Notes: generated by a model from the sequence alone, not told the origin. A stretch of DNA of 64,000 nucleotides from Elusimicrobiota bacterium (GCA_003151975.1 PLZD01000031.1:6571-70570); one strand, 5' to 3'; numbered from the stretch's first letter, positions 9,595-43,776 are shown. Numbers and translations are program-made.

Positions 9595-9998
9595 TCGCGT
9601 TGAGGCACGCCGTCTTTGATGTCGTAGTAATCGCCCTTTTGGGACACATGGCCGTGGATCCGCAGTTTCGTGCCGGTGGGACCGTCGAAGGCGCCCATAG
9701 AGACGCCGATCCAATCCAATTTGATCGGGTCCCAGAAGAGGGGGGAGCCGCAGGTGGAGCAGAAGCCGCGACGCACTTTCTCCGTGGACTGGTACCAAGT
9801 GATGTTCTTCGCGCCTTGGATGGTCACGGCGGAGCGGGGGACGTCGGTGCCCGCGAGGAAATGGCCCGAGGATTTTCGGCAGTGCCAGCAATGGCAGGCG
9901 TCGGGGCCGGGGAGATCGCCGCGGACCTCGAAGGTCACGGCTTTGCAGAGGCAGGAGCCTTTGTGCACGACTTTGGATGGTCGTACAGTTTTAGCCAT
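9591..9998 (-). CDS. GFA (glutathione-dependent formaldehyde-activating / CENP-V) family protein
   Basis: Cys clusters GSCLCKAV ... CHCWHCRK ... FCSTCGSPLF. The start was set at MAKTV, which forms a TAATG overlap with the upstream gene. Confidence 0.85.
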   Translation of the reverse strand: MAKTVRPSKVVHKGSCLCKAVTFEVRGDLPGPDACHCWHCRKSSGHFLAGTDVPRSAVTIQGAKNITWYQSTEKVRRGFCSTCGSPLFWDPIKLDWIGVSMGAFDGPTGTKLRIHGHVSQKGDYYDIKDGVPQRD

Positions 9999-12825: not shown

Positions 12826-13785
12826 ATGGAAGGCATTGAAAGCGAAGGAAAGAGCGTGTCCGAGGCCGTCGAGGCCGCTCTCAAGAAGCTAGGCGTCAGA
12901 CGCGATCAGGTCGAAGTTCAGATTCTTCAGGAAGCAAGCGGCGGATTCATGGGCATCGGATCCAAGCCCGCCCGGGTCAAGATCACGCAGAAGCATTGGG
13001 GCGAGCCCACGCCAACCAACTTGCCGCCAAAGCCCTCGCCCCGCGCGGAGCGCCGCGTGCAGAATTCCGGGCCTCGCCGCGGACAGCCCGAGCGACGCGG
13101 TTCGGCGCCCCAGCCGCGTCACGAGAGTCCCCGGCCCGCGCCGAAGTCCTCGCCCAAGCCCGCCAGACCCGAGTCCCGGCCCGAACCGCGGCACGATCCC
13201 AAGCCTGAGCCGCGCCACGAGCCCAAGCACGAGCCGCGCCACGAACCGAGGCAAGAGCCGCGCCACGAACCCCGGCACGAGCCGCGCCGTGAGCCGCGGC
13301 CCGAAGCAGCGCCCGTCGACAGCAAAGCCGCCTGCCGCGAGTCGGAGGCCCTGCTCAAGGAACTCTTGAAGACCATGCAGTTCGACAGCGGCACGCTGAC
13401 CATCACCTGGGACGAGAAGCAAGAGCGCGTGAAGGCTCTGCTCGAATCCCAGGACGCCGAGTTTCTGATCGGCCAAGACGGCAAGGGCCTCGAGTCCTTC
13501 CAGTTCATCGCGACGCTCATGCTCAGCCGCCGGCTGGGCACGCCCGCGGCCGTGCAGGTCGAGACGCTCGGCTACTGGGAAAAGCGCGAGGCCGACATTC
13601 TCGGCCAAGCGCAGAAAGGCATCGAGGAGGTCAAGCGCACCGGCAAGTCGTTCCGGCTGCAGCCCATGGACCCCGCGATGCGGCGCCTGATCCACCGCAA
13701 CCTGCAGGATCATCCGGACGTCGAGACGGCGTCCGAGGGCGAGGGAAGCTGGCGCAAGATCGTCATCCGGCCGCGCCGAAAATAA
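12826..13785 (+). CDS. jag: Jag/KhpB-type RNA-binding protein (Jag_N + KH + R3H) with a repetitive Pro/Arg/Glu/His-rich linker
   Basis: Start at MEGIESEGKSVSEAVEAALKKLGV with GGAGG 6 nt upstream. The C-terminus has the R3H-type motif PMDPAMRRLIHRNLQD. Position is directly downstream of yidC. Confidence 0.85.
   Translation: MEGIESEGKSVSEAVEAALKKLGVRRDQVEVQILQEASGGFMGIGSKPARVKITQKHWGEPTPTNLPPKPSPRAERRVQNSGPRRGQPERRGSAPQPRHESPRPAPKSSPKPARPESRPEPRHDPKPEPRHEPKHEPRHEPRQEPRHEPRHEPRREPRPEAAPVDSKAACRESEALLKELLKTMQFDSGTLTITWDEKQERVKALLESQDAEFLIGQDGKGLESFQFIATLMLSRRLGTPAAVQVETLGYWEKREADILGQAQKGIEEVKRTGKSFRLQPMDPAMRRLIHRNLQDHPDVETASEGEGSWRKIVIRPRRK
13183..13302 (+). repeat. Five tandem 24-nt in-frame repeats (consensus gagccgcgccacgaaccNaggcaN) encoding (EPRHEPxx)n inside jag
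   Basis: Copies at 13183, 13207, 13231, 13255 and 13279, read directly. The protein reads PEPRHDPKPEPRHEPKHEPRHEPRQEPRHEPRHEPRREPRP. Confidence 0.85.
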
Positions 13786-22045: not shown

Positions 22046-22236
22046 GCGCCCTCCTTTAATGACGCAGGGGAAGCCCGCGAGAGTCCGCGGCTTCCCCTGG
22101 TGGCTCCGGATTACGGTCCGGAGGTGGATGCTCCCCGACCAATCTCGGGGATTACAAGGTCATTTGGAGGTTAGCCCGCAAGGCCCATTGACAGCAGGGC
22201 CGTTAGGCCTATAGACGAATAGGACTTAAGACCTAC

Positions 22237-23677: not shown

Positions 23678-25171
23678 TTAGTTGCCTCCCTGCCACTCGG
23701 GATCCTGCTGTGTGTTCAGGTCGCGGCGCGCGACGCGCGAGACCTGGGGCTTGAGGTAGTCGAAGGCCGCCTTGAAATCGTCCGGGTGCTCCTTGAGGCC
23801 CTTGAGGAAGTAGTAGGTGAAGAGGCCGTGGCCCTTGGCCGCGTAGGTGTTGCTGATCTCGTCGGCGCCGGCCGCGGCCAGCACGCTGATCTTGGCCGGG
23901 ACCTTGGTCGGGACCATGTTGACGAGCGGGCGCGCGCCCGCGGCGATGACCGAGTGACCGCCCGCGCCGGAGAAGCACGAGTCGAGCACGACGGTGACCT
24001 TCGAGGCGGGGAGCTTGGCGAGCGCGGCGTAGAGCGCCTCGACGGGATAGCCCGTCTTGGCGATGTAGGTCGGGTCGCCGTCCCAGGGCACGAGATAAGC
24101 GTCGTGCGTTTGAATATTCGGTGCGCCATGACCCGAGAAATACACGAAAACTTCGTCGCCCTTCTCGACGCGGTTGGGCAGCCAGTTCTCGAAATCTTTC
24201 TCGAAGTCGCTCTTGCTCGCCTGGCCGTCGATGAGCAGCGCCACGTTCTCCTCGGGGAAGCCCAAGGTCTTGGTGACGTACTCGCGGACGAGCTTCGCGT
24301 CGTCGTCGGCGAATTCCGCCGCGGGCATACCGGCCTGCCGGTAGTGCGCGATGCCGATGATGACGGCGTGGCCATTTCGTTTGCCCGAGCCGGCGGGGAC
24401 TTCATCGACATCCGAGCGGATTTTGGCGGGAGCGGCGGGGGCAGCCGCGACGGCAGCGGCGGCGGGGCGCGTGCCGCGGCGGCGCGGGGCGCTGTCGGCG
24501 ACGTCGTTGGAGGCGGCGGCCGCGGCGTCCTTGATCTGGGGCAGGTCGCGGACGATGTCCTCGGCGAGCTTGGAGATGAGCGCCGCGATCGCGACGTCGG
24601 CGCCCTTCTGCATCATGTCGTTGGCGCCGCCAGGGAAGATCATCATGTGCGACATCTCGACCTTGAAATTCTCGGTGTAGCGCCGAATCTCGCGGCGGTC
24701 GGCGTCCTGGATAATGAGGTCGGCCTTGGCGTCGTACTTATCGCCGTACCAAATGATCGGCGAGGCCACGAAGAGCGTGAAGCCGGTCAAGAAGGCCTTG
24801 GCCGCCCACATCGGGTCGGCGACGTACTGAATGGCCATCTTCGCGGACATCGTCAGGTCGATGTCATCGGCCGAGCGGCCCATCGAGATCGGGAACTGGA
24901 CTTCCTTGAACGCACCGGTCTGGCGCAGGCCGTCGGCGATCTTGCCCGGAATGGACGGAGCGATCTCGCTGCTGGCGGTACCCGCGAATTGCGGGCTGAA
25001 CACCATGAAATTGCCGTTGACGGTCGAGCCCTCGGAGACGAGGCCGACGGTCAGATTCGTCGATTCCGACGCGTGCGGGATGGGAGGCGCCTGGTCGGGC
25101 TTGACGGAGGCGAAGCCGCAGCCGGAGATGAGAGTCGAGAGGGCGATGTACGCGGCGAGTGTTCTTTTCAT
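23678..25171 (-). CDS. Lipoprotein with a C-terminal caspase-like (peptidase C14) domain, paralog 2
   Basis: Start chosen at MKRTLAAYIALSTLISGCG (lipobox). YFSGHGAPN and VVLDSCFSGAGG motifs. Its N-terminal domain is unrelated to that of paralog 1. Confidence 0.85.
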   Translation of the reverse strand: MKRTLAAYIALSTLISGCGFASVKPDQAPPIPHASESTNLTVGLVSEGSTVNGNFMVFSPQFAGTASSEIAPSIPGKIADGLRQTGAFKEVQFPISMGRSADDIDLTMSAKMAIQYVADPMWAAKAFLTGFTLFVASPIIWYGDKYDAKADLIIQDADRREIRRYTENFKVEMSHMMIFPGGANDMMQKGADVAIAALISKLAEDIVRDLPQIKDAAAAASNDVADSAPRRRGTRPAAAAVAAAPAAPAKIRSDVDEVPAGSGKRNGHAVIIGIAHYRQAGMPAAEFADDDAKLVREYVTKTLGFPEENVALLIDGQASKSDFEKDFENWLPNRVEKGDEVFVYFSGHGAPNIQTHDAYLVPWDGDPTYIAKTGYPVEALYAALAKLPASKVTVVLDSCFSGAGGHSVIAAGARPLVNMVPTKVPAKISVLAAAGADEISNTYAAKGHGLFTYYFLKGLKEHPDDFKAAFDYLKPQVSRVARRDLNTQQDPEWQGGN

Positions 25172-40462: not shown

Positions 40463-40702
40463 ATGCAGATGACCGTAGACGCTAAGAAGGTCCTCGAGAA
40501 AGCTCTGACCTTGCCGCCAATGGAGCGCGCGGAGCTCGTCGAGCAGATTCTCTCCAGTTTTGAATTTCCAGCACGCGACGAGATCGACGCCTTGTGGGCG
40601 AAAGAAGCCGAGTCCCGAATCGACGCCTACGACCAAGGCAAGCTCAAAGCCTCATCGGCTAGCAAGGTCTTCGACAAGATCGATAAGCGCAAGAAGAAAT
40701 GA
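40463..40702 (+). CDS. Putative addiction-module antitoxin (TIGR02574-like)
   Basis: LTLPPMERAELVEQILSSF....EIDALWAKEAESRIDAYDQGKLK is characteristic of the family. 4-nt overlap with the toxin gene. Confidence 0.75.
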   Translation: MQMTVDAKKVLEKALTLPPMERAELVEQILSSFEFPARDEIDALWAKEAESRIDAYDQGKLKASSASKVFDKIDKRKKK

Positions 40703-40992
40703 AGGTCGTCTTCCTTCAACCCGCCGAGGCTGAGCTCGTCGAAGCCGTCACTTACTACAATCTCCAAAGCGAAGGTCTGGGCTTCGAATTTGCCGCCGAA
40801 GTAAAACGCACGCTGGGCAGAATAATGCGTTACCCGGAAGCCTGGACCTCCCTTTCCAATCGGTCACGCCGCTGCCGCACCAGCAGATTCCCTTACGGCA
40901 TCGTCTACCAATTGAGGGAAGACTCCATCCTCGTCGTGGCTGTCATGCATCTCCACAAGCATCCCGACTCCTGGAAGTCCCGCCTACACTGA
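40699..40992 (+). CDS. RelE/ParE-family toxin
   Basis: 97 aa. AEAELVEAVTYY ... RRCRTSRFPYGIVYQLREDSILVVAVMHLHKHP matches the ParE/RelE pattern. Confidence 0.8.
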   Translation: MKVVFLQPAEAELVEAVTYYNLQSEGLGFEFAAEVKRTLGRIMRYPEAWTSLSNRSRRCRTSRFPYGIVYQLREDSILVVAVMHLHKHPDSWKSRLH

Positions 40993-41427: not shown

Positions 41428-41456
41428 TTGACAAACGCATACTCATCCTCTATACT
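41428..41456 (+). promoter_or_regulatory. Pmra-type sigma-70 promoter TTGACA-17 nt-TATACT
   Basis: TTGACA at 41428-41433 and TATACT at 41451-41456. Confidence 0.7.
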
Positions 41457-41970: not shown

Positions 41971-42968
41971 GCACATGGGCACCCTACTGGCAGAGCCGGC
42001 TCTTGTGGGAGATCACGCGCGGATCTTCGCACAATGCCCCCGATCTCGCCCTGAGCGTCATTGACTCTCTTATGAACCCGAGACAATACGAGCATCAGCC
42101 CGTCCTGCTGGCGGAGGTGTTGGACTCGCTGATTACCGACCCCGGAGGCCTGTACCTGGACGCCACGCTTGGACTTGGCGGCCACTCCGAGGCCATCCTC
42201 CGCGCAATTTCGGCCCAAAGTAAGCTGATGGGATTGGACATGGATCCTGAAGCACTTCTTGCCGCGCAGAGTCGGCTGAAGTCGCTCCCCGGACAATTCC
42301 GGGCGGTCCGCGCCAATTTCAGAACCTTGGGCCGTGTTTTGGACGCAGAGAAGTTCTTCCCGCTGACGGGCGCGTTGTTCGACCTCGGCGTGTCCTCGAT
42401 GCACTTCGACAACCCCGAGCGGGGTTTCTCGTTCATGCACGAGGGGCCCCTCGACATGCGCCTTTCTCCCGATAACAAGCTGACCGCCGCCCAGATCGTC
42501 AACGTCTGGCCCGCGGAGCAGATCGCGCTTCTTATAAAGGAGTACGGCGAAGACCCCAGCGCGAATAAAATCGCCCGCGCCATCGTCGCGCGCCGCGACC
42601 AGAAGCTTTTCACCACGACGACCGAACTGGCCGAGGTCATCTCGGACATACTGCCGCGCGGCAAGACGCACGCGGCGACCCGCACTTTCATGGCCCTGCG
42701 GATCGCGGTCAACGCGGAGCTCGAGAACCTGACCGGCGGTCTCGAGGCCGTCCTGCCCTTCATACAGCAAGGCGGGCGCATCGCCGTCATCACTTTCCAT
42801 TCGCTCGAGGACCGCATCGTCAAGAAGCTGTTCTCGTCGTGGGAAACGGCCAACCTTTGCCGTACAATCGAGATCCGCGGGAAGGCCGTCGTCAAGCCTT
42901 CGGGCGCGGAGCTCGAACGCAATCCTCGGGCCCGGAGCGCGAAGCTCCGGGTAGTGGAGAAGCTGTAA
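41967..42968 (+). CDS. rsmH: 16S rRNA (cytosine1402-N4)-methyltransferase RsmH (MraW)
   Basis: HQPVLLAEVLDSL...YLDATLGLGGHSEAIL...FDLGVSSMHFD...ITFHSLEDRIVK. The start is either the ATG at 41967 (ATGA overlap with mraZ) or the ATG at 42072. Confidence 0.9.
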   Translation: MSTWAPYWQSRLLWEITRGSSHNAPDLALSVIDSLMNPRQYEHQPVLLAEVLDSLITDPGGLYLDATLGLGGHSEAILRAISAQSKLMGLDMDPEALLAAQSRLKSLPGQFRAVRANFRTLGRVLDAEKFFPLTGALFDLGVSSMHFDNPERGFSFMHEGPLDMRLSPDNKLTAAQIVNVWPAEQIALLIKEYGEDPSANKIARAIVARRDQKLFTTTTELAEVISDILPRGKTHAATRTFMALRIAVNAELENLTGGLEAVLPFIQQGGRIAVITFHSLEDRIVKKLFSSWETANLCRTIEIRGKAVVKPSGAELERNPRARSAKLRVVEKL

Positions 42969-42982
42969 CAAGGGGTGAACCT

Positions 42983-43168
42983 ATGATGAAAAGCAATTCG
43001 ATGCTGCGCGGCTCGAGCTCGGGACTTGCGGCGATCATCCAGGTAGGCACCACGGTGGGGTTTCTCACCGATAGGCAGGAGACCGTGAATCTCTCGCCGC
43101 TCAGCCCCGCGACAGCGGGGTACGTGTGGCGGAGGGTCTTCCTCCAGGGGAAGGGACACAGAGCCTAG
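42983..43168 (+). CDS. Possible small ORF (61 aa) inserted between rsmH and ftsL, hypothetical
   Basis: ATG at 42983 preceded by AAGGGGTGA. Third codon positions are GC-rich like real genes. MMKSNSMLRGSSSGLAAIIQVGTTVGFLTDRQETVNLSPLSPATAGYVWRRVFLQGKGHRA. I recognise no family. Confidence 0.4.
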   Translation: MMKSNSMLRGSSSGLAAIIQVGTTVGFLTDRQETVNLSPLSPATAGYVWRRVFLQGKGHRA

Positions 43169-43179
43169 AACAAGATTTT

Positions 43180-43379
43180 GGCGCCCGCCTTCTCGGCGGG
43201 GCGGGCGCCAACCAGTTTGACGGACGGGAACTCGGCGGCCCGTCCGTCAACCCTCTGGCGGGCCCCCTTCTCGGCGGGGGGGCCCGCCACCCCTCCGGGG
43301 GTGACGAATTTGGCGGTGGAGCACTCGGCGGCTCCACCGCCAACACTACGGCGGGCCCCTTCTCGGCGGGGGGCCCGCC
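43180..43379. repeat. Array of five perfect 10-11-bp GC-rich hairpins with variable, fully compensated stems and a conserved 10-nt loop NNCTCGGCGG
   Basis: HP1 43180-43209 GGCGCCCGCC/TTCTCGGCGG/GGCGGGCGCC. HP2 43219-43248 GACGGACGGG/AACTCGGCGG/CCCGTCCGTC. HP3 43257-43288 GGCGGGCCCCC/TTCTCGGCGG/GGGGGCCCGCC. HP4 43312-43341 GGCGGTGGAG/CACTCGGCGG/CTCCACCGCC. HP5 43350-43379 GGCGGGCCCC/TTCTCGGCGG/GGGGCCCGCC. Confidence 0.85.
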
Positions 43380-43392
43380 CCAATTTCTCAGC

Positions 43393-43423
43393 GTAAAAGT
43401 CGCGGTAAAAGTCGTGCTATAAT
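43393..43423 (+). promoter_or_regulatory. Candidate internal ftsL promoter: tandem 12-nt direct repeats GTAAAAGTCG(C/T)G x2 followed by the extended -10 box TGCTATAAT
   Basis: Repeats at 43393-43404 and 43405-43416. TATAAT at 43418-43423, 14 nt before the ftsL ATG. Confidence 0.5.
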
Positions 43424-43437
43424 GTTCGCGCCAACGA

Positions 43438-43776
43438 ATGATCGACCTCAATAATCGGAACTTCAAGATCATAGCGGGCAGCCTCTTCGTCTTGGGGCTG
43501 GCCTGGCAGCAGATTGAAGCCACCCGTCTGGGTTACGAGGTCGAACGCGCGCGTCATGAGGAACGAATACTCCGCGGACGCATCGGCGCGGTTCAGATTC
43601 AGCTCGAAACCAGCCTCTCCCCGGCCCAGTTGGCACTTCAGGCGAAAGCCATGGGCATGATTCAGTGCGATCCCGCTTCCCTGCGCGTCCTCGGCGGTCC
43701 GGACGCGGGGCGCGGGCAAGAGACCTTCCTGGGGAGACTTTTCTCCAGGTCGTTGAAGTCGCCGCTTAGCACTTAA
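43438..43776 (+). CDS. ftsL: Cell division protein FtsL
   Basis: 112 aa, a single TM segment (IIAGSLFVLGLAWQQI) followed by a coiled coil. Sits between rsmH and ftsI. Confidence 0.7.
   Translation: MIDLNNRNFKIIAGSLFVLGLAWQQIEATRLGYEVERARHEERILRGRIGAVQIQLETSLSPAQLALQAKAMGMIQCDPASLRVLGGPDAGRGQETFLGRLFSRSLKSPLST

What the first reader, a model, noticed from the sequence alone, without database searches (positions are those of the whole stretch)
43180..43379. Five tandem perfect hairpins with covarying stems and a conserved 10-nt loop, inside the dcw cluster between rsmH and ftsL
Each unit is a 10-11-bp GC stem with no mismatches in any of the five (51 bp in total).

The stem sequences differ: GGCGCCCGCC, GACGGACGGG, GGCGGGCCCCC, GGCGGTGGAG and GGCGGGCCCC. 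Every difference is matched by the complementary change in the partner arm.

The 10-nt loop is nearly invariant: TTCTCGGCGG three times, AACTCGGCGG once, CACTCGGCGG once.

Units start 38-39 nt apart, except for one 55-nt step that holds an extra mini-hairpin (43289-43302). Most are flanked by T-rich 5' and AAC 3' sequence.

A variable stem with a conserved loop is the reverse of a CRISPR repeat or a REP element, where the sequence itself is conserved. It is the architecture of multi-hairpin RNAs that display a protein-binding motif in their loops, such as the CsrB/RsmZ-type sponges.

No hairpin has a U-tract, so none looks like a plain terminator. dcw clusters normally run from rsmH straight into ftsL. 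Here a 470-bp insert carries a small ORF, this array and a fresh TATAAT promoter for ftsL.

Candidate roles: a 3'-UTR-derived or independent structured sRNA, an RNA-protein sponge, a processing or exonuclease barrier that separates mraZ-rsmH from ftsL-onward expression, or single-stranded-DNA hairpin sites for a recombinase.
Basis: seen in the sequence. Interest (0 to 1): 0.85.

Follow-up and report, generated by a model that had tools for sequence, protein, structure and literature searches.

The report
Conserved-loop RNA hairpin array before ftsL
A string of RNA hairpins with an unchanging loop (CUCGGCGG) and freely varying stems always sits between a tiny unknown gene and the cell-division gene ftsL in a broad group of uncultured Elusimicrobia; it matches no Rfam family and probably acts as a docking site that controls how division genes are expressed.

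Summary
Window 43178-43379 holds five perfect hairpins with 10-13 bp stems and the loop NNCTCGGCGG. They are the only hairpins of this type in the 64 kb.

This is not a generic repeat. Units occur at the same place in 34 of 35 Elusimicrobia species genomes, plus 24 metagenome contigs: 1 to about 9 units, right after the stop codon of a conserved orphan small ORF (about 60 aa) and upstream of ftsL. A covariance model found 127 hits in 635 kb, and all of them lie in that spacer.

The loop core stays the same while MurE falls to about 50% identity. All 12 stem pairs show compensating changes. G·U outnumbers A·C 35 to 5, so selection acts on sense-strand RNA.

No Rfam family matches and I found no literature on it.

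Downstream context varies by lineage: a conserved extended -10 promoter, a canonical terminator, or only a Shine-Dalgarno sequence before ftsL.

Best reading (inferred): a new cis-acting RNA recognition hairpin at the mraZ-rsmH-smORF / ftsL boundary. An unknown factor would read its loop and control read-through or transcript fate. The sponge, passive-terminator and smORF-coupled models remain open. The DNA-level, REP-like and coding models are rejected.

The parts
42983..43168 (+). Conserved orphan small ORF (61 aa; motif GYVWRRVFL near the C-terminus). It always lies directly upstream of the hairpin(s).
   Evidence: 75% identical to the ORF at the same position in L001. Alignments A1 and A5 have invariant Y47 and W49. 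The profile search found 46 hits; the 35 best are all 48-83 aa and none links the family to a larger one. No Pfam or NCBIfam hit. Found upstream of the array in every locus with enough sequence.
43178..43211 (+). Hairpin unit 1: 12-bp stem, loop TTCTCGGCGG. The folded stem starts 12 nt after the smORF stop; the perfect stem starts 10 nt after it.
   Evidence: covariance-model hit of 50.3 bits.
43217..43250 (+). Hairpin unit 2: 12-bp stem, loop AACTCGGCGG.
   Evidence: covariance-model hit of 42.2 bits.
43256..43289 (+). Hairpin unit 3: 12-bp stem, loop TTCTCGGCGG.
   Evidence: covariance-model hit of 43.9 bits.
43289..43302 (+). Small unrelated hairpin, CACCCC-TCCG-GGGGTG (UNCG-type tetraloop), filling the one long step in the array.
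43310..43343 (+). Hairpin unit 4: 13-bp stem, loop (C)ACTCGGCG(G).
   Evidence: covariance-model hit of 47.3 bits.
43350..43379 (+). Hairpin unit 5, the last unit: 10-bp stem GGCGGGCCCC, loop TTCTCGGCGG, followed by CCAATTTC. The stem sequence of this unit is nearly conserved in L128, L007 and L004.
   Evidence: covariance-model hit of 47.8 bits.
43393..43416 (+). 12-nt direct duplication (gtaaaagtcgcg / gtaaaagtcgtg) between the array and the -10 element. It is absent from relatives.
   Evidence: read directly from the sequence.
43415..43423 (+). Extended -10 promoter element TGCTATAAT, 14 nt before the ftsL ATG. This implies a very short leader.
   Evidence: Seen as TGnTATAAT, TGnTATGAT or TGnTAGAAT after the array in most related loci. 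The simple -35/-10 scan does not call it, because there is no -35.
43438..43776 (+). FtsL-like gene (112 aa).
   Evidence: It sits between rsmH and ftsI. Sub-threshold match to NCBIfam FtsL_Actino (E 3.6e-7, 30 bits against a cut-off of 55). Weak DivIC and FtsL Pfam hits in homologues.
42090..42968 (+). rsmH (16S rRNA m4C1402 methyltransferase family), upstream of the smORF.
   Evidence: Pfam Methyltransf_5, E 9.6e-96.

Best explanation
**What it is**
The array is a previously undescribed sense-strand RNA motif. Each unit is a hairpin of about 34 nt whose stem can have almost any sequence and whose loop carries the invariant core CUCGGCGG. The array is transcribed as the tail of the mraZ-rsmH-smORF message and begins a few nucleotides after the smORF stop codon.

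**Proposed mechanism**
The loop is a recognition site for a sequence-specific trans-acting factor, most likely a protein. One candidate is the adjacent small protein with its basic C-terminus. The hairpin or hairpins act in cis at the boundary between the upstream genes and ftsL. They would decide whether transcription or the transcript continues into the division genes (regulated read-through or termination), or how long the upstream message survives. Arrays arise from tandem duplication of an ancestral single hairpin. Extra copies would raise the number of factor-binding sites.

**Shown**
- The structure, its strand, its covariation and the loop conservation.
- Its strict locus specificity.
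- Its linkage to the smORF.
- The variable downstream context.

**Inferred**
- That a factor exists, and what it is.
- The regulatory outcome.
For: **Structure under selection**
- 74 distinct units align without gaps.
- All 12 stem pairs show changes on both sides: 210 such cells, covariation score 0.743 against 0.183 in shuffles, 0 of 500 shuffles as high.
- Sliding the 3' partner by 1-3 columns drops pairing from 90% to 41-53%.

**RNA on the sense strand**
- 35 G·U against 5 A·C among non-Watson-Crick pairs, in 76 units chosen on Watson-Crick content only (p = 1.4e-6).
- The model scores about 40-54 bits on the + strand for well-formed units and 30 bits or less on the - strand.

**The loop is read by something**
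- CTCGGCGG is unchanged in 118 units. These come from genomes whose MurE is only 48-74% and FtsI 38-73% identical to the window's.
- Stems differ even between neighbouring units.

**Locus-specific**
- 127 of 127 covariance-model hits in 635 kb lie in the smORF-ftsL spacer.
- Only 3 of 201 other CTCGGCGG occurrences sit in any hairpin.
- All 24 true arrays from the metagenome scan flank smORF and/or FtsL.

**Boundary role**
- The first unit starts 2-16 nt after the smORF stop.
- After the last unit comes one of three things:
  - a conserved extended -10 and then ftsL;
  - a canonical GC hairpin with a T-tract directly before ftsL, with no room for a promoter (L153, L157);
  - only a Shine-Dalgarno sequence and the ATG (L155, L158).
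- In the last two layouts ftsL can be expressed only by reading through the hairpin region.
Against: - There are no expression, 3'-end or binding data. These organisms are uncultured metagenome-assembled genomes.
- No candidate binding protein was identified by any test. The smORF protein models poorly (pLDDT 42.8 and 58.6) and has no known RNA-binding domain.
- In the window's own clade a promoter lies between the array and ftsL. There the array is not part of the promoter-proximal ftsL transcript and could matter only for the upstream message.
- No alternative (antiterminator) pairing with the downstream terminator was evident.
- The units used for the covariation count were pre-selected for the exact loop and a stem of 9 bp or more. 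The paired percentage is therefore partly circular.
Confidence: 0.5

Rival explanations
1. Passive structural element. The hairpins serve only as factor-independent terminators or insulators and as barriers to 3'-exonucleases. They would end and stabilise the mraZ-rsmH-smORF message and shield the ftsL promoter from read-through, as REP/BIME elements do in E. coli operons.
For: - The stems are GC-rich and perfect.
- The array sits at the 3' end of the upstream cistrons, immediately before a conserved promoter in most lineages.
- The last unit is followed by a T-run of 3 or more in 19 of 26 cases, against 13 of 56 internal units.
- The L157 unit itself passes the simple terminator scan.
Against: - A passive barrier does not need an 8-nt loop core that stays invariant down to about 50% MurE identity.
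- In L155 and L158 the last hairpin is followed directly by the ftsL Shine-Dalgarno sequence and ATG with no promoter. Efficient termination there would silence essential division genes.
- Lineages with a single unit carry a separate canonical terminator right after it. That would be redundant if the unit itself were the terminator.
Confidence: 0.2
2. Trans-acting RNA. The array is released from the 3' UTR as a stable multi-hairpin RNA. It would titrate an RNA-binding protein (a CsrB/RsmZ-like sponge), or base-pair through its loops with targets carrying CCGCCGAG.
For: - The architecture matches: variable stems, an identical loop motif repeated 1 to about 9 times, and copy number that differs between species.
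- The stable hairpins would resist exonucleases.
Against: - Many lineages have a single unit, which is a poor sponge.
- There is no promoter of its own. The array starts 2-16 nt after a stop codon.
- The loops lack GGA, the CsrA motif (read from the sequence).
- No recurrent complementary CCGCCGAG site exists in the dcw loci: at most 3 of 37 loci share a 60-nt bin.
- The strict linkage to one locus argues for a cis role.
Confidence: 0.12
3. Element coupled to smORF translation. The first hairpin sits within the footprint of a ribosome terminating on the smORF. Translation of the smORF (a conserved, possibly regulatory nascent peptide) would then melt or reshape the hairpin and set downstream events, as in attenuation or arrest-peptide systems.
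For: - The first unit begins 2-16 nt (typically about 9) after the stop codon in nearly all loci.
- smORF conservation is concentrated in a C-terminal aromatic/basic motif, GYVWRRVF.
- The smORF and the hairpin always occur together.
Against: - The distance from the conserved peptide motif to the stop codon varies: 9-15 residues after the W.
- This model explains neither the conserved loop nor the multiple copies.
- All three stop codons are used.
- Terminators commonly lie close to stop codons anyway.
Confidence: 0.08
4. DNA-level or mobile element: single-stranded-DNA hairpins for a recombinase or transposase, a REP/MITE-like repeat, or a coding repeat.
For: - The inverted repeats are perfect.
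- Copy number differs between close relatives: 5 in the window, 3 in L002, 2 in L128.
- Some arrays hold identical neighbouring units, which indicates recent tandem duplication (L137).
Against: - G·U against A·C is 35 to 5, which shows strand-specific selection at the RNA level.
- There are no copies outside the one spacer in 635 kb or in the metagenome hits.
- The loop orientation is fixed.
- The period of about 38 nt is not a multiple of 3, so the conserved loop would be read in a different frame in each successive unit.
- The ORF across the array has no Pfam hit.
Confidence: 0.04

Closest known systems
CsrB/RsmY/RsmZ-type multi-hairpin protein sponges
   Same: Both have a string of stem-loops with divergent stems that display one short conserved motif in the loops. 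Copy number differs between species.
   Different: Sponges are stand-alone sRNA genes with their own promoter and terminator, and their loop motif is GGA. Here the motif is CUCGGCGG with no GGA. The element starts directly after a stop codon inside the dcw cluster, and many lineages carry only one unit. No Rfam sponge family matched.
REP/BIME intercistronic palindromes of Enterobacteria
   Same: Both are GC-rich hairpins, often in tandem, between cistrons or at 3' ends, where they can stabilise upstream mRNA. This role of REP elements is from my own knowledge.
   Different: REP elements are dispersed in hundreds of copies with a conserved stem sequence. Here the locus is unique, the stems vary with compensation, and the loop is the conserved part.
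Phage lambda nut site (boxB hairpin bound by the arginine-rich N protein) and HK022 put RNA (processive antitermination)
   Same: In both, a small hairpin is recognised through its loop, lies upstream of terminators, and is encoded next to a small basic protein. This layout resembles L153, L157 and L160, where one conserved hairpin is followed by a canonical terminator and then a long operon.
   Different: There is no sequence or structural similarity to boxB (a GNRA-like pentaloop). No boxA was looked for or noticed. Binding by the smORF protein is pure conjecture. In most lineages a promoter follows the array.
mraW RNA motif (Rfam RF01746; Weinberg et al. 2010, PMC2864571)
   Same: It is a candidate cis-regulatory structured RNA associated with the mraZ/mraW(rsmH) end of the dcw cluster.
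   Different: It occurs in Actinomycetales, upstream of mraW, with a different structure. It did not match here even at E <= 10.
ANTAR-regulated dual-hexaloop terminator/antiterminator RNAs; 6C RNA
   Same: Both are tandem hairpins with variable stems and conserved loop positions. 6C gave a weak match of 23.5 bits.
   Different: The ANTAR loop consensus (A at position 1 and G at position 4 of a hexaloop, from my own knowledge) is not met by CUCGGC. The 6C score is far below its gathering score of 47, and the loops here are not C-rich.

Membership tests
Any Rfam 15 family (including BjrC80, 6C, Xoo2, mraW RF01746, CsrB/RsmZ families) | Covariance-model score at or above the family's gathering threshold | tested here: not met
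   Best match is BjrC80 at 26.9 bits (gathering score 80). 6C reaches 23.5 (47) and Xoo2 20.0 (45). No mraW or Csr/Rsm hit appears at E <= 10. The whole window at gathering thresholds gives only a 2dG-II riboswitch elsewhere.
CsrA/RsmA-binding sponge RNAs | GGA (ANGGA) motifs presented in the hairpin loops | tested here: not met
   The loops are NNCTCGGCGG, and no GGA occurs in any loop of the units listed.
CsrA/RsmA-binding sponge RNAs | Independent sRNA gene with its own promoter and terminator | tested here: not met
   The first hairpin begins 2-16 nt after the smORF stop codon. No promoter-like site lies upstream of the array.
REP/BIME or other dispersed palindromic repeats (MITE-like) | Many copies dispersed through unrelated intergenic regions of the same genome | tested here: not met
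   The 64-kb window has no other copy. The covariance model over 635 kb from 40 sources hits only the smORF-ftsL spacer. All 24 true arrays in metagenomes are next to smORF and/or FtsL. Complete genomes could not be scanned.
REP/BIME or other dispersed palindromic repeats (MITE-like) | Conserved stem sequence among copies | tested here: not met
   Stems vary, with 2-6 standard pair types at each of the 12 pairs (3 or more at 11 of them), while the loop is invariant.
Canonical intrinsic (Rho-independent) terminator | GC-rich hairpin with a short loop, followed at once by a U-tract | tested here: inconclusive
   No unit in the window passes the terminator scan. Internal units lack T-runs. Last units often have T3-T4 (19 of 26), and the L157 unit passes the scan. 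Loops of 6-10 nt are long for a terminator.
CRISPR array | Identical direct repeats separated by unique spacers of about 30 nt | tested here: not met
   The units differ in sequence, with linkers of only 4-7 nt apart from the one 20-nt step that holds the mini-hairpin. Tandem Repeats Finder reports no array here.
Lambda-type nut/boxB-N antitermination | Loop-specific binding of the hairpin by an arginine-rich peptide, and terminator read-through that depends on it | not testable with these tools
   Only the layout is suggestive: a small basic protein gene, then a conserved-loop hairpin, then a terminator.
Protein-coding repeat | A conserved open reading frame through the repeat, with a period divisible by 3 | tested here: not met
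   The period is 38-39 nt. Unit number varies from 1 to about 9. The ORF at 43126-43422 has no Pfam hit.

The most novel reading that the evidence does not exclude
The orphan small protein and the hairpins form a dedicated two-part system: a roughly 60-aa basic protein and its cognate loop-recognised RNA site or sites. The system would gate RNA polymerase read-through from mraZ-rsmH into the ftsL-to-ftsZ division/cell-wall operon. That would be a chromosomal, N/boxB-like processive antitermination or attenuation switch for the divisome in a poorly known phylum. Copy number would act as an evolvable gain control.
Probability: 0.15. Interest if true: 0.85.

Novelty: new variant of a known kind. 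Interest (0 to 1): 0.62.

Why it matters
Little is known about how the dcw cluster is regulated beyond MraZ and a few promoters in model bacteria. Nothing is known for Elusimicrobia. This element is an invariant 8-nt loop on freely covarying stems, fixed at one gene junction across class-level divergence and always paired with an orphan small ORF. That pattern is the signature of a specific RNA-factor interaction.

If the element gates expression of ftsL and the downstream division genes, it would be a new post-initiation control point for cell division. It would also be a new RNA-recognition module: an 8-nt loop code with any stem, which could be useful as an orthogonal tethering tag.

It also gives a clean, testable case of a hairpin array whose copy number changes quickly between species.

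There is a practical point as well. The arrays tend to break or collapse metagenome assemblies at the dcw cluster.

Tried and rejected
1. **Triple-loop DNA pattern on viral contigs.** Multi-loop patterns are therefore unspecific, so I did not use one for the genome scan.
2. **Rfam at permissive E-values.** Only sub-threshold matches to generic GC hairpins.
3. **Structure prediction for the smORF.** I tried a 6-sequence and a 46-sequence alignment. pLDDT was 42.8 and 58.6, too poor for a fold search, so none was run.
4. **Remote homology of the smORF.** The family is small and orphan, with no known domain.
5. **Conserved complementary target (CCGCCGAG) for loop base-pairing within the dcw loci.** No recurrent position.
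6. **Alternative pairing of the loop GGCGG with the 3' end of the stem (CCGCC).** Rejected. When the outer stem covaries (GGTGG/CCACC, GACGG/CCGTC) the loop stays GGCGG, so that pairing is not maintained.
7. **Arrest-peptide idea.** The distance from the conserved peptide motif to the stop codon is variable.
8. **Mimicry of the RsmH substrate (16S h44 around C1402).** I saw no convincing similarity from memory and could not test it, because no rRNA is in the window.
9. **Literature searches.** I searched for the motif string and for Elusimicrobia, ftsL and RNA motifs. Nothing relevant was found.

Full report
**1. The observation**

Reading window 43160-43400 and scanning the whole window for perfect hairpins confirm five hairpins, at 43178-43211, 43217-43250, 43256-43289, 43310-43343 and 43350-43379.
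- The loops are TTCTCGGCGG (three times), AACTCGGCGG and CACTCGGCGG.
- The loop core CTCGGCGG starts at 43192, 43231, 43270, 43324 and 43362.
- The one long step holds a small CACCCC-TCCG-GGGGTG hairpin at 43289-43302.
- The rest of the 64 kb has only four other perfect hairpins of 10 bp or more, and none has this loop.
- The region folds 7.7 standard deviations better than shuffles.
- Tandem Repeats Finder does not see the array, because the units differ in sequence.

**2. Context in the window**

The gene order is as follows:
- a strong promoter-like site at 41428-41456;
- mraZ;
- rsmH, ending at 42968;
- a 61-aa ORF at 42983-43168;
- the array;
- TGCTATAAT at 43415-43423;
- an FtsL-like gene at 43438-43776;
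- ftsI, murE and the rest of the cluster.

**3. Organism and relatives**

The FtsL-like protein has homologues only in Elusimicrobia metagenome-assembled genomes (MAGs) and metagenomes.
- Contigs encoding close homologues carry the same element at the same place, with different unit numbers: 5 in the window and in an independent assembly, L003; 3 in L002; 2 in L001/L128; at least 4 in L007; 5 in L004; and 5 longer, internally looped units in L005.
- Unit 1 of L002 has the stem GGCGGGCGCC where the window has GGCGCCCGCC. That is a triple compensated change, and the loop keeps its orientation.

**4. Breadth and locus specificity**

- A scan of one genome per GTDB species with the FtsL alignment returned 35 Elusimicrobia loci of up to 20 kb.
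- Thirty-two of them have exact CTCGGCGG on the sense strand within 700 nt upstream of ftsL. They hold 1-7 copies, usually about 38 nt apart.
- L130 and L134 carry variant loops (TTTCGGCGG, TACTCGGCGC) on the same kind of stem.
- L161 cannot be judged, because its contig begins 59 nt before ftsL.
- Of 118 upstream motifs, 92 lie entirely within a predicted hairpin loop. In most of the remaining 26 the folding program merely extends the stem into the motif.
- Of 201 other occurrences of the 8-mer on either strand in the same 635 kb, only 3 sit in any hairpin, and those are weak.
- A covariance model built from 74 distinct units gave 127 hits at E <= 1 in 635 kb. Every hit is in the smORF-ftsL spacer. 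The minus-strand hits are the same hairpins at roughly half the score.
- A two-unit DNA pattern scanned over JGI metagenome contigs gave 30 hits. Twenty-four have the smORF and/or FtsL beside them on the same strand. The other six are not hairpins of this kind but coding or tandem repeats.

**5. Structure, strand and selection**

- The 74 distinct units align without gaps.
- All 12 stem pairs show changes on both sides. Each pair has 2-6 standard pair types, and 11 of the 12 have three or more. The covariation score is 0.743 against 0.183 +/- 0.015 in shuffles.
- Sliding the 3' partner by 1-3 columns drops pairing from 90% to 41-53%.
- Caveat: these units were chosen for the exact loop and a stem of 9 bp or more, so the percentage paired is partly circular. 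The diversity of pair types is not.
- To determine the strand I chose units only on Watson-Crick content (at least 7 of 10 pairs). Among the non-Watson-Crick pairs there were 35 G·U against 5 A·C (binomial p = 1.4e-6). Units are not phylogenetically independent, but the asymmetry is large.
- The structure is therefore selected in RNA, on the strand that encodes the dcw genes.
- The loop core does not change across genomes whose MurE is 48-74% and FtsI 38-73% identical to the window's. The two loop bases before the core differ by clade: TT, CA, TA or AA near the window, CT in a second clade, and TA in the most distant one.
- Some lineages add a conserved bulged A (L004) or an asymmetric internal loop (L005, L131) 2-3 bp below the loop.

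**6. The small ORF**

- The 61-aa ORF is a real, conserved gene. It is 75% identical in L001.
- The family has invariant Y47 and W49, and nearly invariant L28, R31, L37, R51 and F53.
- A profile search of 1.84 billion representative proteins found 46 hits. The 35 best are all 48-83 aa, and none links the family to a larger one.
- It has no Pfam or NCBIfam match.
- AlphaFold models are poor, showing only a helix at residues 12-34 (pLDDT 42.8 and 58.6).
- It lies upstream of the hairpins in every locus where the sequence is available. In the low-GC locus L154 only a weak, degenerate remnant could be read.
- The first hairpin starts 2-16 nt (typically about 9) after its stop codon, and all three stop codons are used.

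**7. What follows the array**

- Near the window, and in a second large clade, a conserved extended -10 element (TGnTATAAT, TGnTATGAT or TGnTAGAAT) lies 9-15 nt or a little more before the ftsL start.
- In the most distant clade there is one unit with a nearly fixed sequence: CTGGTGGGCACC-TACTCGGCGG-GGTGCCTGCCGAATTT, with up to three G·U pairs.
- That single unit is followed either by a canonical GC hairpin with a T-tract directly before ftsL (L153, L157, L160; also L135) or directly by a Shine-Dalgarno sequence and the ATG (L155, L158).
- Last units are more often followed by a T-run of 3 or more than internal units are (19 of 26 against 13 of 56).

**8. Interpretation**

Three facts together point to a cis-acting RNA site that a sequence-specific factor reads through its loop:
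- the loop is invariant while the stems are free to change;
- selection is strand-specific;
- the element is strictly confined to one gene junction.

Three layouts occur: promoter after the array, terminator after the hairpin, or nothing but a ribosome-binding site. The only feature common to all is the position at the end of the smORF cistron and before ftsL.

In the layouts without a promoter, ftsL and the downstream essential genes can be expressed only by reading through the hairpin, and in L153 and L157 through a canonical terminator as well. The hairpin therefore cannot be a simple efficient terminator. Regulated read-through, or control of transcript fate, is the most economical reading.

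The adjacent small basic protein is an obvious but untested candidate for the factor. The layout recalls lambda N and its boxB hairpin, but nothing beyond the layout supports that comparison. I put about 0.5 on the general statement and about 0.15 on the specific smORF-antitermination version.

**9. Rivals**

- A purely passive terminator or exonuclease barrier (0.2) explains the stems and the position, but not the loop.
- A released sponge or sRNA (0.12) fits the architecture. It does not fit the single-unit lineages, the lack of a promoter, the absence of GGA, or the absence of a recurrent complementary site.
- Coupling to smORF translation (0.08) explains the fixed distance to the stop codon, but not the loop or the repeats.
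- DNA-level, mobile or coding explanations (0.04) conflict with the G·U asymmetry, the single locus and the 38-nt period.

**10. Comparison with known families**

- No Rfam 15 family reaches its threshold. The best match is BjrC80 at 26.9 bits against 80, and the dcw-associated mraW motif RF01746 of Actinomycetales (PMC2864571) does not match at all.
- Literature searches for the motif string and for Elusimicrobia, ftsL and RNA motifs found nothing relevant.
- The element works like known loop-display hairpins (Csr/Rsm sponges, boxB, ANTAR targets) and sits where REP/BIME elements sit. It fails the defining features of each of these that could be tested.

**11. Caveats**

- All data come from metagenome assemblies.
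- Several contigs end inside or beside the array (L007, L167, L178, L182, L186), and L149 has a run of N within it. Copy numbers may therefore be collapsed, and the 5/3/2 differences between close relatives need long reads.
- Only dcw neighbourhoods were available from the relatives, about 570 kb in all, together with the 64-kb window. Complete genomes were not scanned.
- There are no expression data.

**12. Verdict**

The element is a new, deeply conserved, locus-specific RNA hairpin motif of Elusimicrobia, tied to an orphan small gene at the entrance to the division genes. Its mechanism remains inferred.

Noticed in passing
window 22092-22162 (-), with a perfect 11-bp hairpin at 22065-22099: A 2dG-II (2'-deoxyguanosine-II) purine riboswitch aptamer scores 84.3 bits against a gathering score of 60. 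The overlapping 11-bp hairpin could be its expression platform or terminator.
   Followed up: no
L007, L167, L178, L182, L186 (contig ends) and L149 about 1578-1626 (run of N): Many metagenome contigs start or end inside or beside the hairpin array, and one MAG has an N-gap within it. The arrays seem to break or collapse short-read assemblies, so unit counts may be too low.
   Followed up: partly
window 43393-43416: A 12-nt direct duplication (gtaaaagtcgcg / gtaaaagtcgtg) lies between the last hairpin and the -10 element. It is absent from L128 and L007, and it moves the array 12 nt further from the promoter.
   Followed up: no
L137 5250-5477; L138 9149-9375: Some arrays contain identical or alternating (two-unit period) neighbouring units. 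This indicates recent tandem duplication, whereas the window's five units all differ.
   Followed up: partly
L004 6923-7108; L005 3020-3300; L131 about 9860-9920: These are lineage-specific elaborations of the unit. L004 has a conserved bulged A three base pairs below the loop. L005 and L131 have roughly 20-bp stems with an asymmetric internal loop (GC / GAAT) below a 2-3-bp loop-closing helix.
   Followed up: partly
window 40469-40992 (L003 7032-7555): An Unstab_antitox/ParE-like toxin-antitoxin pair lies just upstream of the mraZ promoter region.
   Followed up: no
window 13177-13313 and 24432-24527: There is a 12/24/36-nt tandem repeat (CGGCACGAGCCG..., about 10 copies) and a (GCG)n tract of about 33 copies. 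I did not examine whether they are coding.
   Followed up: no
window 41428-41456: A near-consensus promoter (TTGACA-17-TATACT, 11 of 12 matches) lies about 65 nt upstream of the called mraZ start. It is probably the cluster's main promoter.
   Followed up: no
viral contigs L008-L127: CTCGGCGG repeated at periods of 12-33 nt is common in IMG/VR contigs. These are tandem, apparently coding, repeats without hairpins and are unrelated to this element.
   Followed up: partly
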